Origin: Antedon mediterranea
Lineage: Eukaryota; Animalia; Echinodermata
Direction: 5' to 3'
Length of the DNA stretch: 64,000 nucleotides
Assembly: GCF_964355755.1 (NCBI RefSeq)
Contig: NC_092679.1
Span: 13,747,432-13,811,431, forward strand
The stretch's first letter is position 1; the number at the start of each line of letters is the position of its first letter. The notes beneath the pieces were generated by a model. The model was not told the origin of the DNA and made no database searches. It saw nothing but the letters and a program-made list of their open reading frames with translations. This document shows, in pieces, positions 5,306 through 63,091 of this stretch. Both the position numbers and the translations under genes were made by a program.

Positions 5306-5335
5306 GGATGATTAATATCACCTCAGCCTGTGAAT

Positions 5336-20044: not shown

Positions 20045-20163
20045 CTAAATAATAATATTGTTTTCTTCAATCTGCGATTCGTCCGGGTCATCATCGATTT
20101 GGAGAAGCAGTACACCCCTTTCTTGGTGACAGCAGTCTGTTTTGAGTTTCTTTAAAAAATCAA
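20045..20163 (-). CDS. Terminal coding exon (cytoplasmic tail)
   Basis: ttcttag acceptor; phase 1 matches the donor after 20303; VDFLKKLKTDCCHQERGVLLLQIDDDPDESQIEENNIII then stop. Confidence 0.75.
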
Positions 20164-23100
20164 CTAAGAATGAGAAAAACAGATTTAAATTTAATTAAAA
20201 GTACACACAACTTAATTTGTTAAAGCTGTTGACCAAATATGGTTTAATGTGCCAATATTTACACAGTTAGGATATAAACATTATATACGATAGATATCGT
20301 ACCTGTTACCACCAGCATGATAGACATGTTCAGCATAATTAGGATAACGGGAGTTATCTTGTGAAGTAAACCAATGACGTCATCTTCATTGAAACTCTGA
20401 TCCAAGTTTACGATCGCCCCAATGGATAGATTGACAACGATAAAGACAAGAGTCAACAATTGGAATCTCTGCTCTGACTTCTCTTTCATTGGTTCAAGGT
20501 ACAAATGCAATACAATAAATATGACAGTAAAAAATAGAGAGTAAGACAAACTTGAGGACACGTCATCTTTCAAGTTTGCAATGAGTGCCAACAGAGCCTT
20601 GTTGTACAGCTCAAATGATTCCCAAAACCAAAATGTGTGCTTGTATTGTCCACAAAAGAACCTTACTCCAATCATCCACCCTTTACTCTGATTTTTCTTC
20701 TGTTGATCACAACGTACATTTTTATAGTATAGCATAAGAACTATGACCAATGGAAAACCAATGATGTATGTTAAAGCAACGTAAACAAGTGTTTTGTTAG
20801 TTTGATACGTAGATCCACCATTTTGGTTCATATCAATGGAGTAGTCTGACGTTAGTACTGTTTCATTGACCGTCTGCTGTGACGTTAAATACACGAATTG
20901 ACCATGGCCCCACTGCTAATATATCAGCACATGTATTTGCATACGTAAGGTAAAGGAGCAACATGGATATAACAATACATCTATCACGTATGCAACTCTC
21001 AGTTACTGCTCCATGACACTTATTCCAGATGTAGCAAATGAAGTAAATGGTAGACATAGTCAACAGTATGACTAGTGGTGTAGCCATAGCAATATGAAGG
21101 GAGGAATACGCATTCCAAGAGTCGTGTAAACATCTTGGACTTAACATACTAATATATCTTATGACGTCAAAATATTGAAGTATTTGGCCAGCATACTCAA
21201 AGTTTTTAGGCCAATGAATTTCGGTTACTTCTGATAGTATACCTAAGACTTGATAAAAATTAATAGAAATTTTTAAATAGGTAACAAATGAATCTAGGCC
21301 GGTTTGTCTTCGATCCACATTTCTTTCCTGCATTCTCCATAAAAGTAAAATCATTCCAATTATTGCAAAGGCAACACTAAGAAATATAATTACAGTTACA
21401 GCAGCCTTTTGACATTTGTGACATTCGTTAAACAGCTCATAATGTCCATTAGAACATGCTGCACAAAGCCAACCTGTGTATCCTTCGACGCAAGTGTCAT
21501 TAAATTTTAGTCCAATATTACAACTTTTTTCGCCTAGTGGACAAGCATACACTTTTGGTAACGGACTTTTGTATACAGCATCTTTCAGTTGATTTGGGTT
21601 GGTAATAGGAAACATGTCGTTTTTTAATTTAGTTACAAATGTTGTGTAAGCCAATAAACAGTTGTTTTTATATTGTTCTTCGCCTACTCTACAGTCACGA
21701 TGAAAGTCCCACGACCACCAGTAACCTTTTGTTAGATTAAGATATCCTCCTTCACAGTTAATACCCTCTGAGCAGGGCAAGCATGGCCCAAATCGATCAG
21801 TTCGATGGAAATTGTCAAGGCAATAACATGCATTTAGATTGGCAATATTATTGGTTTTGGTTCCTGATGGGCAAGTCTGACAATCGGCAATGGACGCAGC
21901 TCCTGCATTATTTGAAAAACTTCCAAGAGGACATCGTTGACAGGAATCTTTGTAACCACCCTTTTCATTTACTCTTCGTTTATCTTGATAGAAACCACCT
22001 GTAACATTTATTTTTTATTTTTAAGTACCTGTCGTTGTTTTATTGTTATTATATACTTTTACTGTCATAACTAAATTAGAGAGATTATTATATTTTATAA
22101 ATATTGCATCATACCTGGTGGGCATTTTGCACATTCGGTGCTATCATACAAACGGTATGTCCCTTCCTTACACGGACTGCATTTACTCGTCGTCGAATTA
22201 CATGTCAAACCTATTTCTCTACCGATATTTCTTAACAGCTCCCCATCAATTCCTTTTATTTCGATTTCTGTACCTTCTGTAACACAAACACTAGCAAAAA
22301 CAATTAGTTTGTAATTATACACAACATGCAATTATATTTATTCAATTATATCTATTCTGTGTATAGTACTATACATATATTACCTACTTAGAGGTGAATA
22401 TCAGATTTGACATCCACGAGGGAATGATTCATTTTATTGTTTGTTAGGCATGATAGTCAGATGCTCACATCACTATGACACTTGTGAATAAATAGTTAGC
22501 TTGTCTTGACAAGTTAGTGAAACAGTGTTGTGATGTGAGATTCCGTTTTTCGGACTTTTTCTGTTGTCTTTGTCAATTTATTCGGTTTTTAGGCTATTTA
22601 GTGATTTATTTTACATTAACATTTTTTCATTTTCACACTTGTGTTAAACAGCGTATAGAGACTATCTGTATTTTGCGCTATATAAATTTCAAACCATAAA
22701 ACCAAAAACCATATTTTTCTCGAAGGACTATCTATTTCACGAAGCGAAGAATACCCTTCTTTTTCAAATTTTATATTTCACCGAAATAAAAGGTGATATT
22801 TGTTATATTATATAGCCAGATATCAGTTTCCCCTTACCTTGTACATATTAGAAAGGTAACTAAAAAATATAGATAAAATCAATTCATCAAATCTTTTATT
22901 TTAAGTGTATTTACATGTTAATTAATTTCCCGATGTTTGAAGGAATCGATTTCAGTCCACAGCAGTTGAGATATCTAAATAAAAATAACACGATTAATGC
23001 ATATTTTGTAACAAAGCATAGTACCACATTGTTAACACATTGTAATGGTGAATGATGCTGATGAGAATGATGCGACGATCATTGGTGATAAAAAGATTGA

Positions 23101-26100
23101 TAAATATACCGAGGATGATGATGACGGTTCAATCGTGGTGATATTGAAATTATCATTATCTTTTGTAAATTGTTTTTACTTATAAACTAAAAACAATAAT
23201 ATACTAATGTACATACACTGTTCCCTTTTCTATCATATGTGATAGAGCATTTTCCTCGATCTGCATTATTGGATTGTCAAATAGATATCTGAGGGAAAAT
23301 ATGAACTTTTTTGTTATTTTAATACCGTACTTAATTTGAATAATTAAACTGTGATTAAAATGTAATAGAAAAAAGTTTAACTTTAAAGTACCTATCATCG
23401 AGTATTTATTTTAAAAGAAAAGTTTTAAAAGAAAAGTATTTAAAAAAAAAATCTCACATGTATTCCAGTGTTGTGTTTTGGGTTTCCAATGTTTTATACG
23501 TAATGTTGGAAATTTTATTACCATAGAGGAATCTGCAGGTTAGAAAAACAATTATGTTGATATAAATTAAGACATTATCAATGCAATTAGTATTTAATTG
23601 TTTGTCTTTGTATTGTTAGTAAAAAAATGATTTACTTGTTTTAGTGCATGTGTGTAGTAGGCATACTGTACAATTGCATACACCATGGATAGATGGATAT
23701 GTATCGACGGTGACATCAAACGCGCTTGCCTATACTAAAGCACTGCTGCAAACAGGCTCCTTGAACTCCATGTCTCTAATCGCGGCCCTCTATAGAACGC
23801 TGCGAATCAACTTTTGACAACAAAACTTACCCATGTAGAAATCGTATGCGCAGTCTGATTGTTATTATTGGCATATCTGCGTCGAGGATTAATTTACAAC
23901 AAGATGTTGGTATGTTTGAATTTATTAAAGAGTGGAAAATAAACGAAACGAAACGAACATCCATGCATACACATATAGTATTCCACACAAACATTATAGT
24001 GACAACAATGTTGGAGCATACAATGATAGATTCATGCAAACAAAATACTATTTAAAAAATAATTCACATGCTAAAGGTGTAGGCCCGTATGCAATAACAA
24101 TTTAACACGATAGCGTAAGCCTATTTCAGTTACAGTTGGACAACGGAGAGCAAACGTAACATATGTTAGGTAATACATAACATTTGCTTACAGAAAATAA
24201 AGATTAGTTTCATTGAACGCTCCATCTTCTATAAATGTAATGTTGTTGTGTACAAGAAATCTGAAAAATATAACAATTATATTTTAGGTAGATTTTAGAG
24301 CTACACTAGCGGTACAGTGAACATAGTTTTAACATTTATACTTTTTAAATTTAAATTGTTTGAAACAAATGTAAATATGGGGAAATAACCTGCGACAAGT
24401 GAACGGAAGATGAACTTGATTCTTTACAGCTCACACGAGTCAGTGTACACTGAACCACCAGTTTCAAGTCCTTTTCCGAGAATACTTTTCTACAACCAGA
24501 ACAATAATCGAGGATTGCCTTGAACCTTTACCGATTGTATAGTTATTGTTCCGGAGCACCCGCCTTTACCGCTTTACCGAAAACGACCAAATAGTATACG
24601 AAATATCTGTATTCAAAACTTAACTCTAACATATTACACGCAGAATTAGAATATTCTGTTGACTAGAACTTGTGCCTAATTATGTTATAATAAGTATATT
24701 GGCTTGCTTTTCATGATCTGTCACGACACTAGTCTACCATTATCTTTCAATCTGGAACCAGCAACAGACTTCTCAGACTTTTGATTAGTTTTCATAACTT
24801 CTCGTTGGCCATATTTTTACCATAAGATGATCTTTTCTCAGAAACCGTCTGTTCTACATAGATCCAATATTAACGCCTGAGTGAGCGTTACATGCCCCTT
24901 TTTAGTTTCTTATACTTAATTACACAGATGAGGTTAGCAGTTTCCACTTTGTATAGAGTGTATTCTTCTTCTTGATCTTCTAGTTGTGTTTACTTTGATA
25001 CACATATCGATAGTTGGTTCTTGATAGTTTCTGTGGGATACACTTATTCACAGAAGAAAACTCTTTAAAGTAAATAGTTTTCTTCACGAAAACTATAATA
25101 GCAGATGAGAGATGCGAGATAGACTCTGTCCCATCATGATGATTGGGGATAAGTACTACTTTTCCGAGCATTGCACTTTTGTGCTAAGAATCTCATTATT
25201 TACTTTGGTGTATATTACCAAATCACTGGCCAATGTATAATTTTAACTATTGTATGATAGAAAAATGAAATACACAACCATGGTAAGGCTAAAGTGAAAT
25301 GTGAATGCTGTCTATTTTTGTTTGGTTTGTTTTGCTTCTGAATATACGAGTGTTAAAAAGTCACTATCCAATCGAGTTTGAACAACACCATGAATTTGTA
25401 CAATGGTTAGGACATCTACATATCAAGCAGAAGGTTCTCGGTTCAAATCTCGGTTATGGCGACTTTCTCATTCTCACAGATTTCCTCATCTTTATCTTTT
25501 CAAATTAATTAATTGAATTTCGGTATATCACCGGGTGGTTTAAAATACATGTTCTGTGAGGTTGTGCATAATGGTAAAATGTATTGCTGTAGTTGGCGCA
25601 TACATTACATCTGCCAGTCACCACTGCTTCATAGTTATTGTGGTAGAACGAGAATTATTTATGTTGACGCGAGAGCACCCGTATTGGCTTGACCAATACG
25701 GTAAGTGGCGGAGTATATCTGAACGTGAAACCCTCAGTTATAGAAAAGTTTATTCACGTATTAAGAACTTTGAGATTGTACATGCACAGGTGTTTGTGTC
25801 TTTATTTCACAAGGTTTTTAACAATTGTAAGTAGAAACAATAGTTTGTGCACTCATTGTGTAAGTTTAATTCAAAAATTTGTGTTACAAAATGGCCTTCC
25901 CGACATGTAGAATAGGTCTTGTTGGACACTCGTTTGTACGCCGGTTGGAATGCTATACCAGCGAACGCAAATTCTTTGCCTTACGCCTAGATGCAAGTTT
26001 GTACGATGTCAAGTATTATTCACGCGGAGGTGCAACGACATACATATTCCCTGATCTGCTTAAGGGATAGTCTACGCTGAAAGATATCGTTTACGTTCAT

Positions 26101-29100: not shown

Positions 29101-32100
29101 GCCACTATTAAGGCGTATCAATGCAATATTCAAAAGTTGGCATCATGGTTGGGAAAACCCGTTCAGTTCCCTATAAACCCGGCTACGGTATGCAACTTTG
29201 TGGCACATTTACATGGTCTACAATATGCACCTAGAACAATTTCATTTCGTCCGTCTCTTTTATCCACAAACTAGCAGACTTACCCGATCCTTGTAATTCG
29301 TTTTTGGTTGTAAAAGTTATGCTTCGGATCGTCCGGATGTACGCTTGCCTATCACTGCAGAAATTTTGACTAAATTGTTAGTGAGTCTAGAGTCGATCGA
29401 ACCTAGTTTTTCTTATAGATTACTTTTCAGGGCCTTTTTCCTTACCGCGTTCCAAGGGTTCTTCTGGATTGGTGAATTGGCCGTAGGTAAAGAGGACGCG
29501 GATAAGAAGGTCGGGCAACGCAGTGATCTATGTCTTTCTGGTAATTCAGCTTCCTTAACTATATACCATCACAAAACCGGCGTAGGTAAGCCCCCTATCC
29601 ATATTTCATTCAATAGTGCCACGGGCGCCCGGTTCTGTCCAGTAAAATGTTTACATGATTACACCAAACATTTTCGGCATACCTCTGGTCCTTTTTTCCA
29701 ACATATGGACGGTCGGCCGATTGCGGCTCGTTTCATATACGCAAAACTAAAAGAGGCGATTTTTTTCAATGGTCTTGACCCTACATTATATAAAGGTCAT
29801 AGTTTTCATATTGGCGCCGCAACTTATGCTGCTTCCCTGGGTTTAGCGGAGAACACTATAAAAACAACAATTTGGTCGATGGAATTCTAAGGCCGTACAA
29901 AATCCAATCATTTTCCATATAGAAATGCTTTCGTATTTCGGATTGTTCGAGCTTGGCCTCGCGAGACATGTTTGTTTCTGTTGGTCATATCTGTCAAGCC
30001 TAGCTCCAGATATTTTCCGATATTTGTTTGTCTGGGTGGTAACCCTCTTTGTTTGTCGGGTTTGTGGCATGTTCACCCAGCAAACTTGTATTTTAATTAG
30101 TTTTAGTTTAGTAAGTCAAGTTAATCTTTGGATTCTTGATAACCAGGCATATTATATTTAACATTCAATATATATTTATGTGATTTTATGTAATAATCAA
30201 GGTGTTTAGTTAGTAGTAGTTATTGTCCGTACATATACGGTACACTCGATAGGGGCAGCCCATACATTATGTAGGCCTATACGTCTTAGATGGAACTAAA
30301 TTAGTTATGGGCTGCCCCATTATTATTACAACTCTAGTATTATATATGATATTATGTGTTTCGTCATTTAAATAAATATATGACAATTTCCATAACTTGG
30401 TGTTATTGTATTTTTCCGTCTGGCTTCTTGCGGCATAAAGGTATATTTTCGTAGTTACTTTTAATACTCACAGCGTTTGAAGAGATGACATATTTGCAAA
30501 GATTTTTGTTGAGATACTTTGAATATTATTTTTGCCGAGAAACAAATTTTTAACTGCAGGTATTTTACGGTCTTCTAATGAGGTTAGACTGTTCCAACTT
30601 AAATCCCTGAAATACAATATAGTTAGTTATATTATAATCATATTATATTTCAGTGAGCAATACTTAGATAATAACATTACAATTACGCCTTGGTTAGACA
30701 TTGATTTGTCATGTATACAATTACTTTTCAATAACATAATACATACTACACTTCAAGAAAGAGAGATATTACATTACTTGTTATTGCCTTGTTTTTCCAT
30801 ATGGCTTAAAGGCCGGTGCACACTAAATAATTACACACAAAGTGACAAACGTCAAATCGAGGCGAGTCGCGTGAAGCTTGAACAAGTTAGACCATCGCGA
30901 ACAAAGTGTCTCGATCCGAGTATGTTCCATTGGAAGCGAAGCGTCACGCGTCATTTTCGCTAGTTCCGGTTCAATCTGGGCGTAGAGAGAGGCCTAGGCT
31001 GGTAGGCCTAGGCCTAGAGGCATAATAAGCTAGGTAGGCCTAGCCTTGGTATTTGCAAATCTATCTCCAATATACTTGTATTTGTTAATACACACATCCA
31101 CTGAAAATGCATTTTCTTTGATTTGGGAATTTTTATATTCAAGTGCACCTTTTGTCATAAAAAGACGAGAATAGGCCTACTCGTGAATTATGGCCACAAA
31201 ATTGACGTCGCTGACACTACATCCATGTTGAACAAATTATTTTCATCTTCATCTGACTGATGACATCACACATAGCCCTACGATCCTTGTGATTTGATTG
31301 ATCAAATTGAAGCGAATTTGCAAGCGAAAACGAAAAAGTTCCAATGGAGAAACTCTAGCGAATTCACGCGCGGAGCCTTTGCTAGTTCAAAAGGTTCTAG
31401 GACACCTACCCCCTAGACAGTTACCTCCCGGATGTTTACCACCCGGACAACTACCCCCTTAGGACAACTACCCCCCGGACAACTACTCCCCGGACAACTA
31501 CTCCCTTAGGACAACTACCCCTTTAGGATAACAACCCCCCGGACAACTACCCCCGGACAACTACCCCTTAGGACAACTACCCCCTTAGGATAACTACCCC
31601 CCGGGTAACTACCCCCGGGAACCTACCCCCGGTCAACTACCCCCCGGTCAACTACCCCCCGGTCACCTACCCCCGGACAACTACCCCCTCCCTTAGGACT
31701 ATATTTATGTTCAATCTTTTACTTTTGTTTACAATAATGAATAGTAATTCGTCAAAATAACGAATTAAAAAATAGTTATTAATTCCTATTATACACTGTT
31801 GCAGAGTCAGGTTGTTGAATGGTCTGGGTGGTAGTTGTCCATCCGGGGGGTAGTTGTTCCAAAGGGATAGTTGTCTGGGTGGTAGTTGGCCAGGGGTTAG
31901 TTGTCCTACGGAGGTAGTTGTCCTAAAAGATTATTTGCCCTCAGAGTATTGTCCAGGTCCAGGAGGTAGTTGTCCTACGGGGAGTATTGTGTCAGAGGTA
32001 GTTGTCCGCGGGTTAATTACCAGGGTGGGGGGTAGGGGGAATTGTCCGGGGGTAATTGTCAGGGGTAATTGTTCCTAGGGGGTAATTGTTCGGGGGGTAG

Positions 32101-35100: not shown

Positions 35101-38100
35101 AAACCCATGAAGATTCCCAGTTCGTGTTTATATGAAATGTTTTATATGGTTATAATAAACCTCTGTTGAAAGATATTTGTAACACCACTAATAAATACAG
35201 TCAGCAGATCACATGTACGTGTAGTCAACATGCAATAAATGCTTTAATTCTTGTAACTGTGTTGATATTGGATACATCTTCTTCTGTCCTTGTGATATAT
35301 ACGGTACATACAATCATGCACATTTCAAGCTTTGGAAAAGGATAACATTTTCCCACCAAAACCAAACACTGTGATTGGTGTAACGGGAAGAGTTAAATTA
35401 CATTTTAATTTAACTCTTCTCTGGTTAAACTTACATAGGAAATACTTCAGAGTCATCTTCTCTGATTATTTTAAATGTAGCATTGTATTGGCGAACCCAC
35501 TCTCTCCTAGGCCTAGAAATCGCGACGAATCAGCACACCGTGACGCGTTTAGTGGGAACCGACAAGAAAAACTAATAGACGCATGACAATTCAACTTTCA
35601 AAGCGATCCGTCGAATGACGCTTGACGCATGACGCTTCGCGGCTTCGCGTTCGGTGTGCACCGGCCTTTAGTGTGTAGGCCTATCGGCCTTTAATATTTA
35701 TAGTTTGAGAATAATTAAACGAAGGCTTCTAATCAATGTTTAATTTACTAATAAGTTAAATAATGATTCATGTAGTAGTCAATACAAATACCCTTTAACA
35801 AACTCTCATTCCATTCATGGATTCATGACAAAGTAGACTAACAGGATTGGTATTATCAATAATAAAGAATATAATTCTTTTAATTTATCAGTATCATTCA
35901 TTATTTCGATAATGTTTATTAGTGAATGATGTAGGCCTAGATACAAAACAAAAAGTAAAACACTCACAGTGTACCATATATGTATCCACGAAATATTGGA
36001 ATTTCCGTAAGTCTATTATAAGCAAGGAGTCTAAATAAGAATAAATAAAACATGACATAACTATAAACATCTACGATTAAAGCAATTACAAATTAAAGAT
36101 ATTATGTTATAGTGAGCATGTTAATTGTAATCAGAAAACTGTTCTTCCTCTAGTAAAACAATAATAGTATTTAATGTGAAGAAGACCCGTGTTACACATG
36201 TGTAAAATCGAAAGTTCGAAATCTGAAAATAACAATAATGTAAGGTGTAAAAAATGACAACAATGTCTAGGCTGACTAGGCAAAGCTGCAATTCATGTCA
36301 CATGATTTATAAAATACAAGCTAGTTAGGCCCATCCCATGACAAACTGCCGTACATTGTAACTTATTTAAGCTATATTCACTATCCTTTATGTACAAGAC
36401 AACGATGTGGCATTTTTTTTTTATTTATTATTTATTTTATTTATTTATTTATAAACTTATTTTACATGGATGACATTTTCATTAAAAATAATGTACAAAT
36501 GGTCCATGATTAAAGAAATGCATGCATAATAGTGAATAGTCATAAGTTACAAACATTTTTTTTTGTTTTAGATTAGGACTATAGAAAGACATACAAGTAC
36601 AATAACATTTAAAATACAGATACAGAATTAATAAACAGTTAAGTAAGTACATCGCAGTTACACCGGTTCTCAAGTTGAGGTTTCTATTTAAATACATCAT
36701 ATTAGTTGTGTTTTGTACTTATATTTAAACGCATTGTAAGAGGTCGCTTCTTGCAATGATATATGAAGGTTATTCCATACTTTCCAACCAGCCACTTGAA
36801 GTGACATATTCATTTTGGTAACATTTATCTTGGGTATAACTACATTTAAGGGTTTTGCCAATCGAGTATTATAACCATGTCTATCAATGATTAATTCAAC
36901 TTGATCTACCAGACTTTGAGGGGCTAGGCCATGAATGCATTTGTACATCATATAAGATATTGAAAATTCACGCCTCTGTTCAAAGGACTTCCAACCCAGG
37001 TCATTGATAATGTCATCCCCTCTGAAGTTTATAAAATCATAGTTTCCTGACGTGATTCTAGCAGCACGTCTTTGTTGTTTCTTTGCGATATCAATAAAAC
37101 AATTCCCCGTAACATATATACAAGTATCATCAGCAAATACATTACATGTTCAAGTTTCCACAGACTGTGAAATATCATTTATAAAAAGAAGAAATAGTAA
37201 CTGTCCAAGGACCGACCCTTGTGGAATTCCAATTTTGATTAGCTCAAAATCAGATTTATTACCATTACAGAACACAAATTGTTTTCTCCCTTTTAAGTAG
37301 TTTCAAACCATTTAACTGATACTGTGTCAAAACCGTATTTGGTTAGTTTATATAAAAGTATATCATGGTTTATTGAAAAAAAACATTTTGAAATAACGAG
37401 AAACATGCACCTATCATTTCTGAATCATTTAAAGCCCCATTCCCTACGTTTTTTAGATCTAATTTAAGATCACAAACTATATTTAATGTAAAAATAATAC
37501 TATATGGTCCTATTGCGATAACTTTTTTCGTCTTTAAACGGTTAAAAATGTGAAAAATAAATCGATTTTAATAATTATAGCGGCCCGCTATAAATCCCAA
37601 AATGCATTGCGCGCGGATTGATATTTTTGTTTTTCACCTGTAATTCGCCCACTTTTCGATCGATCGTGAAGCCAAAACAAATGGAAGACTCCTAACTTTT
37701 CAGCGAAAATACCGGGTGTTCCCCAATTTGTATCAACGGAGTCTGGCAAAAATAGAAAGACAATTAATGCAGCAACTATACAACGTCAGGCTAGGTATAT
37801 AGCTAGCGTACGATGTTCGTACGTTACCGATGTTTACCAGCTAGGCCTACAAAACTAAGCCTAGCTAGGCTAGGCCTGAGACCGTCCACGAGAGTTCGAT
37901 CGCCGCGAGCTACTTAGGTAGTGCATTGTTTCTCACTTTTTATCATAATTTACCATAAAACGTACATTTAAGACAAGGAATGACATGGTTTAATGTTTTT
38001 AAAGTGATATATATGTATTATTTTCCAAAAAACGTCCAAAATTGCAGGGAAGGGGTCTTTAAATATTCTAACCATTCACCAACAACTAGTCCATGGGATT

Positions 38101-50100: not shown

Positions 50101-53100
50101 CGATAACTTTTGTCTTACATCCATAAACTGCCACGGATGCTGAAATCATGCGAGGTCCGATATAGGATATTTCATTGATAATTACATTGGGGTCGATTCG
50201 AATTACTAGTGCAACACCGTCTCGTCGGAGTCGTTTGCGGCCACACCAATGAACTTCGTATTCTGCATTACCAACTTTTATGATTGTATTACCCTGTTAT
50301 AGTTTTCGTACTTCTTGTAGTGCACAAAGGGTGAGTCCGCTTCTAACGATCTGACGTACAGCTTCTTCTAGTCTCCTGTCTTCCGAGCCGGTTCGAATGT
50401 TAATTGTGCCAATTTTCCATTGATGAAAGTTTTTTAAAGTTCGATTCGACGTTTTAGGCATGTGTAACAATGATAACGTATTTTGAATTTTTCTATAAGT
50501 TAATTTTATACAGTCGCGGTATTGGATAAGAATAAGGATGTTGTTTAACAACTGCACACTTCCTCTTACATGTTAACAGATCCACCATTTGTAAATGCAA
50601 ACGCATTTTCACCAAGCATTTGAAGTTTCTTGTTATTCTTAATTCGCCTGAAAAAAATGAAGGAGAGGAGAAGATTACTAGTTCGTAGTTCCTTATTAAA
50701 ATACAACTAAAGGACAGTCACACATTTTTAGTCGCGTTGAAGCGACTCTTTAGTTCACTATGTCGGTCGGTCGGTCGGTCTGTCGGTCTGTCAGTCTGTC
50801 GGTCCGGTATCACTATGCGTTTTATCTCTTTCTGACCTTATCTTGATATCAGTTTAATCCAGCTAGGTCAATTTTTCACAGTATATTCCTTATGGCCAGG
50901 AATCAATGTGGTTATGTTTTCACGGTGCGCAATAAAAAATTACGCGGTCTACGCACGATTTAACGAAATCACGTTTGTAATCATATCTTCACAACCATGA
51001 ATCACAATTAAATAAAATTTGGTACTCATAAATTTCAGGGCATAAATCCTCATATGGCAATACAATTACGTGCGTAGCGCATGTAACGCATGCGTACGCG
51101 CGCTTAAAATTTTCAAAATTTATTTTCGATGAAAAGAGTACGTTTCAAGCAATTTTAAGCGTTTACAAAATTGCCATGAGTGCGCATATTTTTGCGCGCG
51201 CACTGCGCGTTAAATGTTATTGCGCACTCTTTTTGCCCGGTTTCTGTTTTCTTGACTTACTTTTCAACTCGAAATTACGTTATACGAGCACGTCAAAAGT
51301 GACAGGCTACGCACGTGTAAATTAAAAAAATATAAATGTTTTTAAACATTTCAACATTTTTAAACATGTTCAGTAATTTCGGTCAGTATAGTTCACTATG
51401 TCGGTCGGTCGGTCGGTCTGTCGGTCTGTCTGTCGGTCTGTCTGTCGGTCCGTTATCACTATGCATTGTAGCACGCGACTTAATGGCTGTTGGCCTTGTT
51501 TTTAAAGATTTTAATACTTAATAACTGTCTAATTGAGTTGTCAACATGTTAGCCTTGACCTCTTCTATTTCTTCCGGTCAATGTTTAATAGTATTTAAGC
51601 ATTAACGTCCTCTATGGTGAATAAGTAACTAGCTTTACAAAGACAAAACACATGACCTAACTAATGTTTCAAAATATGTTGGTATGGATCGATGAACCTT
51701 GACCTACTCTACCTTTGCTACCCTATTTCCGCAATATTTTTTGCATCTAACATCACCCCCCCCCCCAAACGAATAAGTAATTAGCTTTACGAAGGTTATA
51801 ACAGTTGACCTACTTCTTTTTTTTCAAAATATTTTAGTAGGGATCGATGGCCTTTGACCTACTCTACTATTTGCCACCCTAGTTCCGCGAACTTGTTTGC
51901 GTTTACGCCCTCTACGCCGAACATTTACCTACTTAATTTTAATATTGTAACAAAAATTAAAAACTTACAAATTTACTAATTTGCTGTTGTTTGCAAAAGT
52001 AAAAGGTTCAATGATATTTATATCATTAGATGACAGGTATCTGAAGAAAAAAAATCATCATTAGTTTTTAGAATAAATATCTCAAATTATAAAAGTTGTT
52101 AAATAAGAGTGTGGTAGTCGTGGTAGTGACAGGTGGTACCATAGTAGCAGCAGCGGCGGCAGTAGGAGCAGCAGCAGTATAACAGACTGACTAGAACGAT
52201 CGTCAACGTGTATTTTCAGTAACTACATGCAGTACATTATTTATCTTATTCATTCGTGTTATAAAGAAGAAATCACTTAGTGACGCTATGAAATAACAAC
52301 TGATGATCATCTAAATCAAATAAAATATTCTTTTTCTTCATCATCGTTATCATCAACATATAAAGAAAATCAGAAAAATAAAAACAGGTCTATTTATACA
52401 GATATTGACTGCTTAGAGGTTAAATATAAGATTTGACATCCCCGAGGAAATGATATTATATTCGAGGGAATATATATTTCCCGAAGCGCCAGCTTTCCCG
52501 AGTGGATGTAAACGGTGATATCTGTTATATTACATATCCAACAACAATTTAACTGCTGGGTCGGGTGTAGGCCTAGCTAGGCCTCTTTTATGTAATAAGC
52601 CTGCCTAGTTAGGGGTTGCATTCATCTTACCTTGTAAAGAATAATATACAGATAATTACTAATTAATGATTCCTTGGCAATAAAATATTCACTTAGGCCT
52701 AGGCCGTTTAAATTAACAGAATAATTTCTATTAATAATAATAATATTATTATCACTTTATCAGGTAGGCCGAATAAATAATAAGTCTTCTTCTTCGAGGA
52801 GCCGTACCGTGTTACTACTGTGTATTAACCAATCACAAACGGTCTTTCGTCACATCTAGTCAAATCATTAATCAAACTACCATTAATGATCTTATTACTA
52901 AAATTAATTGGAATCCACTTCCACAAATGACACTAATACTAGATATAATATGTTTATTAAAGAAATCCAACATACGATTGAACAAACTATTCCATCTAAA
53001 ACACCTAAACAAAGAAAAAATAATATAAAAAAAAACTATGGATTACTAGAGGTATTCTTAAGTCAGTCAATAAAAAAAATGTATTATATAAAAAACATTT

Positions 53101-59100: not shown

Positions 59101-62100
59101 ATTCGCTGACGATACAAATCTGTTCTTATCAAACCCCAATTTAAAATACACTTATTGATATTGTTAATTCTGAACTTATCAAAATTGATAAATGGCTTAG
59201 GTGTAATAAACTTTCTCTTTACTGTGATAAGACTAGATATATAATTTTAAAAACTAAAAGAAGTAAAATTAATGTTAATAATATATCCATTAAAATTGCT
59301 GATAAATCTATATCCCAAACAAATTACTATAAGTTTTTAGGAGTCTTTGTTGACGAATTTGTTAATTTTAAAACTCATATTGATCTTACTACTTCGAAAA
59401 TATCTAAATAGTTAGTTTACTTTTTAAAATTCGTCACTACCTTCTTTAAGTGCACTCCTTTCAATCTATAAGTCACTTATGCAACCTCTTATCAGCTATT
59501 GTAACATTATTTGGTTTAATTCATATGCTTCTTATACTGATAAACTTGTTAAACTCCAGAAAAAAAAGCAATACTAGCAATAACTTGGTCTGATTATCGT
59601 GCACCAACAATCCTCTCTTCCACATACATAATGAATTAAAAATTGATGATATTCATAATTACCAAATTGGCATTGTTATGTTCCGAATGTTGAATATTTC
59701 TGATTTACGATTTTTAAACCTTAAAAATTGTACTGATGGTAATGGTCAAAAGTAAAATACTAGAGGAAAATGTAAACTTCGACCTCCTCTTCGAAGACTA
59801 GTTTCTACAAGTCATAGTATTGCTGTTTCGGGTCCTTATGTCTGGAACAACTTAGATATGACTATTAAAAATGCAAATTCCATTAATGTTTTTTAAAAAA
59901 ATTTTTAAGTTGAATCTAATTAAGTACAAATCTTAATTTCTGCCGATGTCAATGTTACTTTATATATATATATATAAAGTTAGCTCTGCTAACTTTTCTG
60001 GCTGTTTACTTCATCGTTTTGATTTATCTTTTCGCTTTTTATTTTTGTATCTCCATTGAGATTTAGCCACTGTTACCCACAGCATTGTCATTTTTTTCAG
60101 TAATTTGCCTTTGGATTTATATATATATATATATATATATATTTCAATATTGTATATTTCCTATTTTAGTATTAGCTGTTTTATAGTTGTTTAGTTATTT
60201 TAGGTCTTCAACCCTGTACAAGCTTTTAGCTTTTTGTTGTTGATCCTTTTCATCTTTTATGCATTTTATCTTTGACATGTTTTATAATTATTTATTTGAT
60301 GAATAAAATGAATGAAATGAAAAATTAAAATGACTAATAACAAATGAGGAAGCTATGTATGCATAGTTTAAATAGTTTAGTTGATTAATTTCTTCAAGCA
60401 AGTTGCGTGGTGCATCGGATGAAACATTGTCTTGTGATGGAGTGACAATTCATCGCGGTTCAAGTCTCACTAGATGACTTTTGTTTATTTATCGCCAAAC
60501 GCGAGTGTTGCCACACGAAAATTACACAGTCAATATCATCGTACTCGAGAATTTTCTGGATTTTAAATGTTTGTTTGTTTGTTATGACACGATAATTACG
60601 CGAAAATTATTCAGTCAATATCATCGTACTCGAGGATATATACGATTTACGATCCTCGCAGTGGTAGTCATGTGATGCAGTTTCAACCAATCACGTTCAC
60701 GTATTTACATATGCTATGTAATATAAAGAGATAAAACGGAACACATCAAAACTCTAAATGATCTTGATACCTCAATAACAAGAAAGTTATCAAAAATTAA
60801 AAACTTACAAATGTGCTAATTGGCTGTTGTTTGCAAAAGTAAAAGGTTCAATGATATTTATATCATTAGATGACAGGTATCTGAAAAAAAAATCATCATT
60901 AGTTTTTAGAATAAATATCTCAAATTATAAAAGTTGTTAAATAAGAGTGTGGTAGTCGTGGTAGTGACAGGTGGTACCATAGTAGCAGCAGCGGCGGCAG
61001 TAGGAGCAGCAGTAGTACAACAGACTGACTAGAACGATCGTCAACGTTTATTTTCAGCAGTACATTATTTATCTTATTCATTCGTGTTATAAAGAAAAAA
61101 TCACTTAGAGACGCTATGAAAACTGATGATCATCTAAATCTAAATAGCAGCACCGGCGGCAGTAGGAGCAGCAGCAGAAACAGTACAACAAAGTGACTAG
61201 AACGATCGTCAACGTGTAATTTCAGTAACTAAACATGCAGTACATTCTTTATCTTATTCATTCGTGTTGAAAAGAAAGATCACATCGTTATCATCAAAAT
61301 ATAAAGAATATAAAGAAAGATCAGATAAAGTAAAACATGTCTATGAAGAAATAAAAACGGAAACACATCGAAATTCTAAATGATCTTGATACCCCAATAA
61401 CAAGAAATTATTCAAACTGTTGCCGATTACGGTTATAGAAACTGATTGCTGCGTTTAATTATTATATAACCTAAATTTGCATTTAGAAATTAACAATACT
61501 TATAGTAATCAAATATCGGATATACATTCTCCCATAAAATTACTACTGTAATGCTAATAAATTATGAAACAAGCAATAATTTAAATGATTTTGTTATCGT
61601 TAAGTTTTTTCACTAAAATGATAGACTATTAACTGCTTTTGTTGAATCTGTTTCTGAAACATGGCTATATATAAAGACATTTTACTATATTCAGTCGTTG
61701 AAACAACAATGTCTTTTCAGGTTTAAGTGTGTCATGCAGGAATTGCTGGACCTTTCCATTCTTTGACTATAATAGTATTAAAGGTGCTCGGATACGTTTC
61801 ACATTTTCACATTTATTCCACATTTATTTAGTCAATCAATTACGTGCATTAACAGAACCGTATAATCATCAAATAAACACATGTTTCGTCATCAAGGGTG
61901 ATTTCAACCGAATGAAAAATAAAGCGTTTTCCTCTAAAAGCAAATAATTACTATTTTGTAATAACTGTATATATAATTATATTATAACAATGTAATTGGT
62001 GGTTTCATTTAGGAACAAATAAACAGAACAAAACGCAATGACCAATTTGGATGCACCAAGATGTATACACTGTTGATGCATTTGTATCACTCTTACATGC

Positions 62101-63091
62101 AGCAGCAGCAGCAATGGCAGCAAAAAACAGCAGAAGAAAGAGAAATTGCAGCATCGGCAAGAGAAGCATCGGCAGCAGCAGAAACAATTTTGAAGGTAAC
62201 AATTGAACTTACAAGTTAGATATCACGGTGGATCCTTTAAATGTGGTATTTCTCAATATAGTTATTTTGTTGTTGGTCAAGCTCCTATTATGAAAAAAAA
62301 AATATGTCACTACTTAGGATACTTTATTAAATGCGATTGTATAATAGTAACTTCGTTTTATCATTTCCTATGCTTTATTCATTGACTGTGAAATCTTCAG
62401 AAATACGTTTTATTGTTGTTATTGTTTTAAACCGCAGTGCCGTCCAGTTGTAATTAATAGTGAGACTTTTCATCGCGACGGTAAACGAAAAGAGACGGTA
62501 ATTTAATATATAGAGTCTGGTGCTAAATGCCTTCGAAACAAAAGCAACAACGGTTAGCCTCCTCTAGGCTTAGGCCCCTGATCCTATGCATGCAAGCTCG
62601 GTTGAGCAGGTTCTGCGTTAGTCAGGCTAGGTATTCGATTAGCAAATTTAAAAATATGAACTAAAAAACACATAATCAAAAACGGAGTTTAAAAAAAAAT
62701 AAATCTAGAAGAATAAAAATGAATTTACATCCTACACATACTATATATACACATATGATGTTTTTGTTATGAAAATAAACAACTTGTGCCTATCATGTAT
62801 ACATTTGCTTTGCTTATGGTTTAACAGTTTCAGAAAGACGTCAACTGTGCTGCTTCGTCTGGTTGAATTGTAAGACCGATCTTTAGATCGGCTAAATACA
62901 ATGAACGGAATGTATGCCACCTACTTTCGTTAATTTACCGTCTCGAAGCAAAAGCTCACTACTAAAAGTTAGTTCTACACACGTAAAAGAAGTAACATTT
63001 TCAAATTATATTGTCTACTTACAAAATACGAAGAAATGGAAGATCATTAAAAACTGTGGATATGTCTGTCAGCAAATTTTTGTCTGCATGT
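20045..63091 (-). CDS. Multi-exon host gene: LRR array, Cys-rich (GCC2/GCC3-like) region and ~8-9 TM helices; 5' end not identified; one frameshift near 20866
   Basis: Manually spliced GT-AG exons: 63091-63023, 62284-62213, 60880-60809, 52040-51969, 50647-50570, 46343-46278, 44319-44251, 43415-43344, 36030-35968, 30606-30472, 24260-24192, 23532-23458, 23288-23217, 22974-22915, 22290-22115, 21998-20303, 20163-20045. All junction phases are compatible. Confidence 0.8.
20303..21998 (-). CDS. Large exon: Cys-rich repeats plus multi-pass TM domain, frameshift near 20866
   Basis: GFYQD...CQRCPLGSFS...CQTCPSG, CVEGYTGWLCAACSNGHY..CHKC, LKISINFYQV, HWP, LTSDYSID, FWFWESFEL. ORFs 20863-21780 and 20259-20894 overlap in different frames. 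Confidence 0.85.
22115..22290 (-). CDS. Cys-rich linker exon
   Basis: tttgctag acceptor (phase 2); VCVTEGTEIEIK...CSPCKEGTY...CAKCPPG; gtatga donor (phase 1). Confidence 0.75.
22370..22820. mobile_element. Non-autonomous repeat related to the 5' part of 52394-60726 (class uncertain)
   Basis: Shared CTTAGAGGTnAATATnAGATTTGACATCCnCGAGG and GGTGATATnTGTTATATTA motifs. Confidence 0.5.
22915..22974 (-). CDS. LRR exon (60 nt, phase 2-2)
   Basis: YLNCCGLKSIPSNIGKLIN; ag/gt flanks. Confidence 0.65.
23217..23288 (-). CDS. LRR exon (72 nt)
   Basis: YLFDNPIMQIEENALSHMIEKGTV; cag/gtatgt. Confidence 0.8.
23458..23532 (-). CDS. LRR exon (75 nt)
   Basis: FLYGNKISNITYKTLETQNTTLEY; cag/gtgag. Confidence 0.8.
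24192..24260 (-). CDS. LRR exon (69 nt)
   Basis: FLVHNNITFIEDGAFNETNLYFL; tttcag/gtaagc. Confidence 0.85.
25392..25550 (+). mobile_element. tRNA-derived short repeat abutting the DIRS/Ngaro element
   Basis: A-box-like TGTACAATGGTTAG and B-box GGTTCAAATC; body shared with 1375-1490. Confidence 0.55.
25890..26400 (+). pseudogene. SGNH hydrolase/esterase ORF of the retroelement
   Basis: Block I LVGHSFVRRL, block II SRGGAT, block III DIVYVHLGENDI (about 26083-26118), block V DGVHLN (about 26373-26390). Confidence 0.8.
26650..27260 (+). pseudogene. gag-like ORF of DIRS/Ngaro
   Basis: LGSNVPL*VKNKIWANGYIDLKTLI, W...AITIYMSI, MLKYVSNI, WRTYDESFRK, WDVLHPEL, then Cys/His-rich C-terminus. Confidence 0.75.
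27315..29005 (+). pseudogene. RT/RNase H of DIRS/Ngaro
   Basis: LPTPV, ISSPLGVVPK, SKTDIEDAF, LPMGA, HILDDFF, LGIELDT-like, FSDAA, LELFPI, CDN, NVWADLLSR. Confidence 0.85.
27365..27490 (-). mobile_element. L2-type 3' tail (SINE or LINE end) inserted in the RT ORF
   Basis: Reverse strand reads GCGCCTTGAGCACTCTTGAGTGGTATGTGCGCTATAAAAAT followed by (TTAT)n; it interrupts WYLAG|YTQELF. Confidence 0.6.
29070..29905 (+). pseudogene. Tyrosine recombinase (inactive)
   Basis: SLAPATIKAY, RLPIT, GFFWIGE (catalytic R to W), KT, CPV, GHSFHIGAAT (R to H), frameshifted GRWNS. Confidence 0.85.
30472..30606 (-). CDS. Double-LRR exon (135 nt)
   Basis: DLSWNSLTSLEDRKIPAVKNLFLGKNNIQSISTKIFANMSSLQTL; tttcag/gtgagt. 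Confidence 0.85.
31393..32494. mobile_element. Foldback/MITE-like element with arms of tandem GGACAACTACCCCC repeats
   Basis: Left arm 31400-31700 is C-rich tandem; right arm 31826-32493 is the reverse-complement GGGGGTAGTTGTCC tandem; AT-rich spacer between. Confidence 0.75.
32610..35667 (+). mobile_element. PIF/Harbinger element (inner) with a MADF/BESS-like ORF remnant
   Basis: TIR AGGCCGGTGCACACCnAACGCGAAGCCGCGAA with TWA flanks. MADF-like FMEILCHYPSCLYDKGSKSYTDRNIRINA* (32886-33002) and BESS-like GQYIIAMELRAI..KRGLAIMRLIQV (33540-33660). Confidence 0.8.
33771..34322. mobile_element. MITE with AGATGTATTGTCC TIRs (TTAA-type, Kolobok-like)
   Basis: AGATGTATTGTCCTTT ... AAAGGGACAATACATCTTTAA; another end copy at about 34619-34637. 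Confidence 0.6.
35968..36030 (-). CDS. LRR exon (63 nt)
   Basis: LLAYNRLTEIPIFRGYIYGTL; tttag/gtgagt. Confidence 0.8.
37429..38062. mobile_element. TTAA-flanked MITE (Kolobok-like)
   Basis: TTAAAGCCCCATTCCCT ... AGGGAAGGGGTCTTTAA; removing it plus one TTAA restores the LINE frame. Confidence 0.8.
38087..40553. mobile_element. Non-autonomous Academ with ~700-bp TIRs
   Basis: TAGTCCATGGGATTTAG ... CTAAATCCCATGGACTA with AAC TSD; arms about 38087-38770 and 39710-40553. Confidence 0.9.
41259..43139 (-). mobile_element. Non-autonomous Helitron
   Basis: Minus strand: A|TCTATATATATAAA ... hairpin CTAGAGAGGAGCGAGCGAAGCGAGCTCACCCTCTAG|T, no TSD. The empty site restores the LINE codons CCT AAT ATT. 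Confidence 0.9.
43344..43415 (-). CDS. LRR exon (72 nt)
   Basis: NLVNNNISFIHKDAFVALDRIFSL; ttttcag/gtgagt. Confidence 0.85.
43513..43642 (-). mobile_element. Minimal HINE family A copy (ends plus microsatellite only)
   Basis: ATAGTTCACTATGTCGG(TCGG)n ... ATATGGCCTTGT. Confidence 0.65.
44251..44319 (-). CDS. LRR exon (69 nt)
   Basis: YLDNNKLRSIPSKAFQGGDILVL; tag/gtaagt. Confidence 0.85.
44362..44702. repeat. Near-perfect ~171-bp tandem duplication
   Basis: TGACCCGAAGTTACTTTAGAGATGCAACC...TTTTATAGCATTTTTAAAT occurs twice. Confidence 0.9.
44790..45535 (+). mobile_element. 3' end of an L2/Rex-Babar-type LINE
   Basis: ORF 44818-45378: MIVDFR, YKYLG, KKGQQRLYLLRQL, HPLH, RTKRYNKSFVP. Confidence 0.85.
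45640..46475 (+). mobile_element. Diverged, partial Helitron of the 54456-55848 family
   Basis: GTAAATCACGTGTAAATTCTAGAATTTTACTC near the start and a truncated CTAGATGGTACGCGAGCGAA hairpin at about 46455. Confidence 0.4.
46278..46343 (-). CDS. Degenerate LRR exon (66 nt)
   Basis: FISPSVVELSTGTFKLSTGSS; ttttag/gtgagt, phase 2-2. Confidence 0.6.
46550..50500 (-). mobile_element. Near full-length decayed single-ORF APE-RT LINE (RTE-like)
   Basis: KIGTINIRT, ALQEVR, IYAPT, LGDFNA, FTWY, RTLDYL, SDH, QYGFR, YTDD; no ORF1 seen; multiple frameshifts. Confidence 0.85.
48991..49784 (-). mobile_element. HINE/DINE-1-like family A, full copy
   Basis: TTTTTAGTCGCGTGGAAGCGACT hairpin end, (GTCG/GTCT)n, subTIR CACGCGACT, GGCCTTGTT end; inserted at TT without TSD. 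Confidence 0.9.
50570..50647 (-). CDS. LRR exon (78 nt)
   Basis: RIKNNKKLQMLGENAFAFTNGGSVN; tttcag/gtaaga. Confidence 0.8.
50725..51500 (-). mobile_element. HINE family A, full copy
   Basis: Near-identical to 48991-49784. Confidence 0.9.
51618..51900. repeat. Two diverged ~150-bp tandem copies
   Basis: GAATAAGTAAnTAGCTTTAC...GGATCGATG...GACCTACTCTAC..TTTGC.ACCCTA.TTCCGC occurs twice. Confidence 0.6.
51969..52040 (-). CDS. LRR exon (72 nt), duplicate copy B
   Basis: YLSSNDINIIEPFTFANNSKLVNL; ttcag/gtaagt. Confidence 0.85.
54456..55848 (-). mobile_element. Non-autonomous Helitron, complete
   Basis: Minus strand: A|TCTATATATAAATTTACG ... CTAGATGGTACGCGAGCGAAGCGAGCGTACCATCTAG|T; ~90-bp tandem duplication at the 5' end. 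Confidence 0.9.
56092..58500. mobile_element. TTAA-flanked DNA transposon (Kolobok-like, non-autonomous)
   Basis: TTAAAGGGGGGGTTCCGGGTTTAAAA ... TTTTAAACCCAGAATCCCCCTTTAA; TTAA TSD shown by restoration of the L1 frame. Confidence 0.85.
56127..56965 (+). mobile_element. HINE family A, full copy
   Basis: AACAAGGCC..AGTCGCGTG, (ACAG/ACCG)n, AGTCGCTTCCACGCGACT-AAAAA. Confidence 0.9.
60398..60490 (+). mobile_element. tRNA-derived SINE-like head
   Basis: GTGGTGCATCGG A-box-like and GGTTCAAGTC B box, followed by a T-rich tract. Confidence 0.45.
60809..60880 (-). CDS. LRR exon (72 nt), duplicate copy A
   Basis: YLSSNDINIIEPFTFANNSQLAHL; tttcag/gtaagt. Confidence 0.85.
62213..62284 (-). CDS. LRR exon (72 nt)
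   Basis: SLTNNKITILRNTTFKGSTVISNL; tag/gtaagt. Confidence 0.85.
63023..63091 (-). CDS. LRR exon (69 nt)
   Basis: HADKNLLTDISTVFNDLPFLRIL; tttcag/gtaagt. Confidence 0.8.

What the first reader, a model, noticed from the sequence alone, without database searches (positions are those of the whole stretch)
20045..63091. Hidden 43-kb gene: LRR ectodomain, Cys-rich repeats and ~8-9 TM helices - an atypical receptor architecture
Seen: 17 GT-AG exons splice in compatible phases into about 15 LRRs, then CxxCPxG (GCC2/GCC3, ephrin-receptor-like) repeats, a CxxGYxGxLCxxCxxGxY motif, and a multi-pass domain (KISINFYQ, HWP, DYSI, FWFWE..L..K) with a short acidic tail. Known: Toll-like receptors are single-pass with a TIR domain, and LGRs have a rhodopsin 7TM with DRY/NPxxY-type motifs; none of these is visible here. 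From recall, the Cys-rich plus TM part resembles poorly characterised 'GPCR-related' multi-pass proteins that are expanded in protists and some marine invertebrates. Inference: a candidate non-TLR, non-LGR recognition receptor or gated channel class.
Basis: partly seen in the sequence, partly recalled or inferred. Interest (0 to 1): 0.85.

Follow-up and report, generated by a model that had tools for sequence, protein, structure and literature searches.

The report
Broken copy of LRR nine-helix receptor
This feather-star gene is a frameshifted copy of a multi-copy marine-invertebrate family that joins a fast-varying leucine-rich-repeat arm to a predicted nine-helix membrane domain related to parasite secretion triggers (CRMPs) and fungal calcium-handling proteins, so its intact sister copies likely act as recognition receptors of a kind other than Toll-like receptors or GPCRs.

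Summary
The gene is real but broken in this assembly. All 17 minus-strand GT-AG exons are there and align to Antedon mediterranea RefSeq proteins (95.7% to the intact 1100-aa XP_071963739.1). It causes a stop at 20865 and removes predicted helices 5-9. XP_071962196.1 (680 aa) matches this locus and ends at that stop. The signal peptide and first ~110 residues lie outside the window. Intact paralogues are predicted to have 16 LRRs, a Cys-rich stalk, a DUF7630 module and nine TM helices. They lack TIR, 7tm and GAIN domains and DRY/NPxxY motifs. The TM core matches the apicomplexan CRMP core motif by motif (by eye). It is also linked to fungal Flc/Pkd2 proteins (PF06011) through relatives. The LRR-bearing form occurs in crinoids, starfish, sea cucumbers, jellyfish, corals and a sponge, with lineage-specific expansions. 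Among near-identical copies, changes cluster on the LRR concave face (31/81 against 21/174 positions). Best reading: a birth-and-death recognition-receptor family that signals through the 9-TM core, likely by Ca2+ entry or triggered secretion (inferred). No paper describing it was found. No RNA evidence was available.

The parts
63023..63091 (-). First exon inside the window; LRR, matches P0002 residues 111-133; not the gene start (acceptor AG before it)
62213..62284 (-). LRR exon, phase 2-2
60809..60880 (-). LRR exon, copy A of a duplicated exon (block 60788-61146)
51969..52040 (-). LRR exon, copy B of the duplicated exon (block 51948-52322, 92.8% alike); 3 of 72 nt differ from copy A, all changing a residue
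50570..50647 (-). LRR exon; holds the Met at which RefSeq model XP_071962196.1 begins
46278..46343 (-). LRR exon
44251..44319 (-). LRR exon
43344..43415 (-). LRR exon
35968..36030 (-). LRR exon
30472..30606 (-). Exon with two LRRs
24192..24260 (-). LRR exon
23458..23532 (-). LRR exon
23217..23288 (-). LRR exon
22915..22974 (-). Last LRR / capping exon
22115..22290 (-). Linker and first Cys-rich repeat (phase 2-1)
20303..21998 (-). Large exon: ephrin-receptor-like Cys repeats, DUF7630 module and nearly all of the nine predicted TM helices; 1696 nt, out of frame
20863..20872 (-). Frame break: 5 nt missing near 20869 against the laid contigs, then TGA at 20865-20863, 560 nt before the last exon junction; falls in the loop between predicted TM4 and TM5
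20045..20163 (-). Last exon: end of TM9 and short acidic tail, stop

Best explanation
This is a frameshifted, likely dead copy in a multi-copy crinoid gene family whose intact members are predicted to be cell-surface recognition receptors: a leucine-rich-repeat arm on a Cys-rich stalk, joined to a predicted nine-helix membrane domain of the CRMP / Flc-Pkd2 (PF06011) superfamily. Shown: the exon structure, the break, intact paralogues, and the concentration of changes on the LRR concave face. Predicted: signal peptide, 16 LRRs, Cys-rich stalk, DUF7630 cap, nine helices, N-terminus out and a short disordered acidic tail inside. Inferred mechanism: a variable outside ligand, most likely microbial or other non-self, binds the concave LRR face. 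The stalk passes the change to the 9-TM bundle. Since the tail carries no TIR, kinase or other signalling domain, the output has to come from the bundle itself or from a partner it recruits. By analogy with fission-yeast Pkd2 and with CRMPs, the most likely output is local Ca2+ entry and/or triggered exocytosis. Copies are born by duplication, diversify on the binding face, may skip single-repeat exons, and die by frameshift, as this one appears to have. My odds by step: kinship with the CRMP/PF06011 9-TM group 0.9; this copy non-functional 0.75; non-self recognition role 0.5; Ca2+ conduction by the bundle itself 0.35.
For: Gene and break. XP_071962196.1 matches the window from the Met in exon 50647 to the premature stop. 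Of the 6 members of its 90% cluster, 3 are full length and 3 are short (324, 680, 705 aa), and 5 of the 6 list the same 25-Mb contig length. Fold: nine helices at mean pLDDT 87.9, pTM 0.88 for the DUF7630+TM part; same in the full-length model (mean pLDDT 85.4, pTM 0.61). Superfamily: relative P0090 passes the PF06011 cut-off (36.3 against 28.5 bits), and P0057, P0165, P0142, P0037 and P0040 hit below it. The best Foldseek hit among viral models is named a TRP ion channel (E 2.9e-4, TM 0.44). The TgCRMPa and PbCRMP1/2 cores in supplement S2 of PMC9815656 show the family's conserved motifs in the same order (by eye). CRMPs and Pkd2 are both described with nine TM helices. Diversifying face: variable positions among four close copies are 31/81 concave, 21/174 other LRR, 13/103 other polar LRR, 6/68 core and 32/370 TM (p 3.7e-6 against other LRR, 9.7e-5 against other polar LRR). 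Expansions: crinoid, Antedon-only, holothurian and asteroid clades with SH-aLRT 99-100 in a quick tree of 52 rows. The same core carries a C-terminal kinase in P0039 and a weak TIR hit in P0040, which fits use as a receptor module. Reconstituted Pkd2 passed Ca2+ under stretch (PMC9727806 passages). CRMPs are proposed sensors that trigger rhoptry and mucocyst exocytosis (PMC9670195 passages).
Against: No RNA, expression, localisation or ligand data for any family member here. P0002 itself has no PF06011 hit at E<=0.1, so the link runs through relatives. The CRMP match is by eye; no alignment or tree included a CRMP. Concave-face variation is measured on proteins only (no dN/dS), positions are not independent, and surface positions vary for neutral reasons too. 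The function of the known relatives is itself unsettled: Singer et al. allow that CRMPs act as trafficking escorts, and in the passages I read Pkd2 conduction rests on vesicle and cell Ca2+ imaging. The runs laid differ from the window at positions where all their contigs agree (for example 20828), so they are not the source individual and cannot show that the deletion is real. The tree is the quick one and its sampling is biased by my queries.
Confidence: 0.55

Rival explanations
1. The deletion is an assembly error, and this locus is an intact member with one extra LRR.
For: No listed contig from four runs has the window's version; in X1 the depths of the +5 forms sum to the whole depth there (2685). 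The rest of the copy looks undecayed: canonical splice sites, no other stop, 358/370 TM residues as in P0002.
Against: A 5-nt loss outside a homopolymer is not a typical long-read consensus error (own knowledge). The window has other private letters beside it, so the runs are other individuals or relatives. RefSeq models the locus as truncated, and two more cluster members are short. One contig of organism B is net +7, so out-of-frame copies may exist elsewhere too (X6 piece 20, X7 piece 27).
Confidence: 0.2
2. The family recognises something other than microbes (gamete or conspecific surfaces, chemical or settlement cues, matrix), or serves as an adhesion or escort protein, with no ion flow of its own.
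For: Fast-evolving surfaces and expansions also mark gamete-recognition and chemosensory genes (own knowledge). CRMPs may act as escorts for partners. No pore-like similarity to a solved channel was found.
Against: LRR concave-face variation, tandem copies, broken copies and independent expansions in several invertebrate lineages is the pattern known for plant LRR receptors, sea-urchin TLRs and NLRs (own knowledge). The family is kept from sponge to echinoderm.
Confidence: 0.3
3. The truncated product (LRRs, stalk, four helices) is made and acts as a membrane-anchored decoy or regulator of intact paralogues.
For: The ectodomain exons are intact, and a sister model (P0015, 705 aa) also ends in the same loop between predicted TM4 and TM5.
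Against: The stop is 560 nt upstream of the last exon junction, which predicts nonsense-mediated decay (own knowledge). Half a helical bundle is unlikely to fold (inference). The deletion was not seen in other individuals.
Confidence: 0.07
4. It is a highly divergent LGR-type or adhesion-type GPCR that signals through G proteins.
For: LRR ectodomain on a multi-pass domain as in LGRs. PANTHER labels TgCRMPa 'GPCR-like' (PMC9670195 passage).
Against: No 7tm_1, 7tm_2 or GPS/GAIN Pfam hit in 11 of 11 proteins at E<=0.1. No DRY, NPxxY, CWxP or GPS motif in the TM region of four of five proteins checked; one DRY-like match lies in the tail of P0006. Nine helices predicted. The authors of PMC9670195 state that CRMPs are not bona fide GPCRs.
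Confidence: 0.04

Closest known systems
Cysteine Repeat Modular Proteins (TgCRMPa/b, Plasmodium CRMP1-4, Tetrahymena CRMP1/2)
   Same: Ephrin-receptor-like Cys repeats, a Cys module directly before nine TM helices, N-out and C-in topology. The conserved motifs occur in the same order by eye: Cys module, K-I in TM2, Cys in the loop before TM3, Y in TM4, L-x-x-[DA]-x-S-x-x-C, P in TM5, Y/F...W-x-W-E-x5-[RN]-K.
   Different: Animal protein with an LRR solenoid instead of MAR, Kringle or lectin domains. Much shorter, with a short acidic tail. Multi-copy and variable rather than a conserved essential pair. PMC9815656 calls CRMPs apicomplexan-specific, though it notes Dictyostelium homologues. No animal partner or secretion role is known.
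Fungal Flc / S. pombe Pkd2 family (Pfam PF06011 'TRP')
   Same: Nine predicted TM helices under an extracellular domain. PF06011 hits the TM region of relatives, one above the cut-off. Foldseek links the model to a viral protein with this name.
   Different: No ML-like TRP_N domain; LRR plus Cys-rich stalk instead. P0002 itself has no PF06011 hit. PMC9600462 calls the FLC family fungal-specific and finds almost no identity to human TRP channels, so this is not a canonical 6-TM TRP either.
LGR / glycoprotein-hormone receptors
   Same: Signal peptide, LRRNT and LRR solenoid on a multi-pass membrane domain; roughly one repeat per exon (recalled for LGRs).
   Different: No rhodopsin 7TM hit or motifs; nine helices; long Cys-rich stalk.
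Toll-like receptors and other variable LRR immune receptors (sea-urchin TLRs, plant RLPs; recalled)
   Same: LRR ectodomain, multi-copy clusters, broken copies, variation focused on the concave face.
   Different: Nine-pass rather than single-pass; no TIR or kinase; intron-rich.

Membership tests
Toll-like receptor | Single TM helix followed by a cytosolic TIR domain | tested here: not met
   No TIR hit in P0002, P0013, P0006, P0007 at E<=0.1; nine helices and a short tail
LGR (rhodopsin-class GPCR) | 7tm_1 domain with DRY / NPxxY / CWxP-type motifs | tested here: not met
   No 7tm_1 hit; motifs absent from the TM region
LGR (rhodopsin-class GPCR) | GPCR fold by structural search | tested here: inconclusive
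   Foldseek PDB gave no match at E<=0.001, listed GPCRs TM-score <=0.22; VIA-align best Z 8.7 on generic helical bundles
Adhesion GPCR | GAIN/GPS domain and 7tm_2 | tested here: not met
   No such Pfam hit; no GPS motif
CRMP | Cys-rich ephrin-receptor-like repeats in the ectodomain | tested here: met
   PF07699 hits, E 2e-4 to 3e-4, just under the cut-off in the window and P0002; above it in P0007, P0009, P0090
CRMP | Conserved core: Cys module plus nine TM helices | tested here: met
   DUF7630 27.2 bits; nine helices predicted; motif order matches TgCRMPa and PbCRMP1/2 by eye. Met by intact paralogues, not by the window's truncated product
CRMP | Orthology to the CRMPa or CRMPb clade | not tested
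   No CRMP sequence was available as a stored protein; none in the tree
CRMP | Complex with a second CRMP and TSP-domain partners; needed for triggered exocytosis | not testable with these tools
   Needs pull-downs and knock-outs
Flc/Pkd2-like (PF06011) | PF06011 over the TM domain | tested here: inconclusive
   Absent in P0002; above the cut-off in P0090 and below it in five other relatives
Flc/Pkd2-like (PF06011) | N-terminal ML-like TRP_N (PF14558) domain | tested here: not met
   No such hit; the ectodomain is LRR plus Cys repeats
Flc/Pkd2-like (PF06011) | Ca2+ permeation or control of Ca2+ homeostasis | not testable with these tools
   Needs reconstitution or patch clamp
Intact protein-coding member of its own family | Open frame through TM5-TM9 with the W-E...K motif | tested here: not met
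   Stop at 20865-20863

The most novel reading that the evidence does not exclude
Marine invertebrates from sponges to echinoderms have an undescribed class of variable immune receptors in which an LRR solenoid directly gates a CRMP/Pkd2-type nine-helix Ca2+ channel. The solenoid is diversified by gene duplication, concave-face change and cassette skipping of one-repeat exons. These would be surface 'sensor channels' that link non-self binding to degranulation without TIR, kinase or G protein, descended from a protist trigger for secretion on contact.
Probability: 0.2. Interest if true: 0.9.

Novelty: new variant of a known kind. Interest (0 to 1): 0.6.

Why it matters
If the intact paralogues work as inferred, invertebrate immunology has missed a receptor family. 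Databases list it as 'uncharacterized' or under unrelated LRR names such as IGFALS or carboxypeptidase N subunit 2. It would also connect two literatures that did not meet in my searches: apicomplexan and ciliate CRMPs, and fungal Flc/Pkd2 proteins. Both are described there as largely lineage-specific, and my searches found no solved structure for this core. A compact 1100-aa animal member with a modular LRR arm is a practical object for asking what this nine-helix core does. The window's own copy matters less: it is probably one casualty of birth-and-death evolution.

Tried and rejected
No whole genome was held, so paralogues were counted from protein databases only. No RNA holder was listed; X5, guessed as RNA, covers introns like the DNA runs, so junction support could not be tested. 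Solved-structure searches gave nothing clear: sequence profile best E 0.068, Foldseek none at E<=0.001, VIA-align best Z 8.7 on short helical bundles. That absence is not evidence of a new fold. Homodimer prediction of the TM core gave no verdict (score 0.06); it is not used either way. A 13-nt GT-AG 'intron' over the break would put the frame back, but I rejected it as far too short for splicing (own knowledge). Earlier-findings look-ups were empty. Literature searches found no paper describing this animal family: PTHR11319 0 papers (the accession was recalled); LRR/ephrin/multi-pass/cnidarian 0; crinoid LRR expansion 4, none relevant by listing; CRMP/Pkd2/Foldseek 8; 'cysteine repeat modular' 77, of which 40 were listed, all apicomplexan by title; DUF7630 0; PF06011 8; LRR/nine TM/invertebrate 57, of which 25 were listed. 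Subscription papers are not in the library. The trypanosome DGF-1 preprint (passages) also describes 7-9 C-terminal helices, but I did not test kinship. PMC3251606 and PMC11682238 (passages) were not relevant. The careful tree did not finish; only the quick tree is reported. One search had one repeat mis-registered by one residue; one search is the corrected count.
Full report
Observation. A motif scan and a splice-site scan of the minus strand found 14 phase-2/phase-2 LRR exons between 63091 and 22915, one of them with two repeats. They are followed by exons 22290-22115, 21998-20303 and 20163-20045. All 16 introns are GT-AG and the exons total 3035 nt. The model built from them is 95.7% identical over 987 residues to Antedon mediterranea XP_071963739.1 (P0002, 1100 aa), and tblastn of P0002 recovers each exon. 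So the gene is real and the window is almost certainly from this feather star.

Corrections. First, the large exon is out of frame. Translation stops at TGA 20865-20863, and the DYSI and FWFWE motifs lie in another frame. In four DNA runs, the listed contigs that bridge the place carry extra letters, nearly all a net +5. In X1 the depths of those forms add up to the full depth. One contig of organism B is net +7. None listed has the window's version, though the tables are cut (13 indel rows and 90 pieces not shown). Those runs also differ from the window where all their contigs agree, so they are not the source individual. RefSeq XP_071962196.1 (P0014, 680 aa) matches the window from a Met in exon 50647 to exactly this stop. 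That model joins exons 5-16; I cannot tell whether it rests on transcripts or on homology. The stop falls in the loop between predicted TM4 and TM5 and lies 560 nt before the last junction. Second, 63091 is an acceptor, and P0002 residues 1-110 (signal peptide, LRRNT, first repeats) are not in the window. Third, exons 60880 and 52040 are a local duplication of about 370 bp (92.8%) of an exon that is single in P0002, P0013 and P0016.

Anatomy of the intact protein. AlphaFold2 on P0002 gives an N-terminal helix (the likely signal peptide), 16 LRR strands, a Cys-rich region and nine long helices (691-718, 724-750, 789-821, 826-853, 891-929, 955-970, 976-997, 1003-1029, 1036-1078), with a disordered acidic tail (mean pLDDT 85.4, pTM 0.61). 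The DUF7630+TM part alone reaches pLDDT 87.9 and pTM 0.88. Pfam finds LRRs, ephrin-receptor-like repeats and DUF7630, and no TIR, 7tm or GAIN domain. In a 100-row alignment, polar positions inside or at the edge of the membrane are conserved: K735 and Q742 in TM2, Y845 in TM4, D881, W955-E956, E959 and K963 in TM6, Q1009 in TM8 (its printed numbers are one too low and are corrected here). That suggests a polar cavity or a conformational switch (inference).

Kinship. A profile of the Cys-module plus TM region hits 25,073 clusters at 50% identity (E<=0.001; 1,692 at 1e-30). I scanned 42 of the 51 hits of 950 aa or more among the best 150; 39 of 42 have LRRs. The profile was built mostly from LRR-bearing members, so this share is biased. 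Named members come from crinoids (Antedon, Anneissia), starfish (Acanthaster, Patiria, Asterias), sea cucumbers (Apostichopus, Holothuria), jellyfish (Rhopilema, Sanderia), coral (Montipora) and a sponge (Oscarella). I did not test absence from other phyla. ESM Atlas neighbours agree: Echinodermata and Cnidaria clusters for the whole protein; Porifera, Cnidaria, Chlorophyta and Haptophyta clusters, some with PF06011 on 10-15% of members, for the TM part. PF06011, the fungal Flc/Pkd2 domain, passes its cut-off in P0090 and hits weakly in five other relatives but not in P0002. The best viral fold match is named a TRP ion channel (E 2.9e-4). The CRMP cores printed in supplement S2 of PMC9815656 (first ~400 residues of each visible) show the family's motifs in the same order, by eye. 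CRMPs have nine TM helices (PMC9815656, passages and section 6), as does Pkd2 in AlphaFold (bioRxiv 2022.08.11.503631, passages). No solved structure matched.

Evolution. The 90% cluster has six RefSeq proteins, three full length and three short, five listing one 25-Mb contig length. A quick tree of 52 TM cores shows a crinoid clade (20 rows), an Antedon-only clade (8), a holothurian clade (11) and an asteroid clade (4), each with SH-aLRT 99-100; long-branch joins elsewhere are unreliable. The LRR region diverges faster than the TM region (0.57 against 0.84 identity to P0003). Among four close copies, variable positions are 31/81 on the predicted concave face, 21/174 in the rest of the LRR, 13/103 in its polar subset, 6/68 in the core and 32/370 in the TM region. 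The three intact copies alone give 30/83 against 19/174. The two duplicated exons differ at 3 of 72 nt, all non-synonymous (small numbers). In 9 of 16 comparisons of RefSeq isoform models from Apostichopus, Montipora, Oscarella and Asterias, the difference is a clean loss of one to three repeat-sized blocks at the same register as the window's exons; the other seven are N-terminal, short, or another locus. These are predicted isoforms; their read support was not seen.

How it most likely works. Inferred: intact copies sit in the plasma membrane with the LRR arm out. A variable ligand, most likely non-self, binds the concave face, and the Cys-rich stalk and DUF7630 cap couple binding to the nine-helix bundle. 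With no cytosolic signalling domain, the bundle or a recruited partner is the effector. The two studied branches point the same way. Pkd2 passed Ca2+ in vesicles under stretch (PMC9727806, passages). CRMPs are needed for contact-triggered exocytosis in Toxoplasma and Tetrahymena (PMC9670195 and PMC13739732, passages). Cryptococcus Flc1 controls Ca2+ homeostasis (PMC9600462, title and passages). In other eukaryotes the same core carries a kinase (P0039) or a weak TIR hit (P0040) at its C-terminus. Against this: no expression, ligand or channel data exist here, an escort role for CRMPs is open, and the variation test is protein-level only. The window's copy would lose TM5-9 with the most conserved motif and is probably dead.

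Verdict. The architecture is real for the family, and it is not a TLR, LGR or adhesion GPCR. It is an LRR-armed animal variant of the CRMP / PF06011-like nine-helix superfamily, which eight paper searches did not find described; subscription literature was not searched. This locus is a broken copy already modelled by RefSeq as an uncharacterized truncated protein. Novelty: new variant of a known kind. Interest 0.6, carried by the family rather than the locus.

Noticed in passing
window 26071-29887 (+), inside intron 30471-24261: A run of broken ORFs that look like a DIRS-type retrotransposon (gag-like, RT, RNase H, tyrosine-recombinase-like; identification recalled from motifs). Pfam found nothing at E<=0.01 on six fragments.
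   Followed up: partly
window 47026-50572 (-), 44773-45375 (+), 58561-59151 (-), 53384-53836 (+), 36700-37149 (-): LINE-like fragments inside the long introns (endonuclease, RVT_1, zf-RVT and ALKBH8_N hits for four fragments; two had no hit). Such insertions account for part of the gene's length.
   Followed up: partly
window 12019-12747 (-) and 13598-14761 (+): Two reverse-transcriptase fragments downstream of the gene (RVT_1, E about 1e-22).
   Followed up: partly
window 25351-25514: Very high-copy short repeat (depth about 1000-fold its surroundings in X5, with many loose ends) whose start resembles a tRNA A-box (recalled); probably a SINE.
   Followed up: no
window 22448-22811 and 23720-23863: High-copy interspersed repeats in the small introns near the Cys-rich exons.
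   Followed up: no
window 31400-32480: Arrays of a 15-17 bp C-rich unit followed by its G-rich reverse complement, i.e. a large imperfect inverted repeat; possibly a foldback-type element.
   Followed up: no
window 22020-21999 (-): The acceptor of the large exon has an A-rich upstream stretch with no polypyrimidine tract, yet the junction matches all paralogues.
   Followed up: no
window 4706-6589: Two partial copies of Cys-rich ORFs on opposite strands sharing a stretch; look like decayed DNA-transposon remnants (recalled); no Pfam hit for 5312-5716.
   Followed up: no
P0039 and P0040: The same nine-helix core fused to a C-terminal protein kinase (with a beta-helix ectodomain) or to a weak TIR domain in non-animal or environmental eukaryotes.
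   Followed up: partly
BFVD A0A5J6VHI1, A0A5J6VI06, A0A5J6VLW6: Environmental Megaviridae proteins appear to share this TM fold.
   Followed up: no
P0086 (Montipora), P0132, P0140: Family members with extra or alternative ectodomains: CUB or SRCR ahead of the LRRs, or HYR without LRRs.
   Followed up: no
window 20700-21060, runs X1 and X5: The contig closest to the window has about 3-4 times (X1) and about 7-8 times (X5) the depth of most other paralogue contigs, hinting at several near-identical copies and copy-number differences between samples; contig depth is a poor measure.
   Followed up: no
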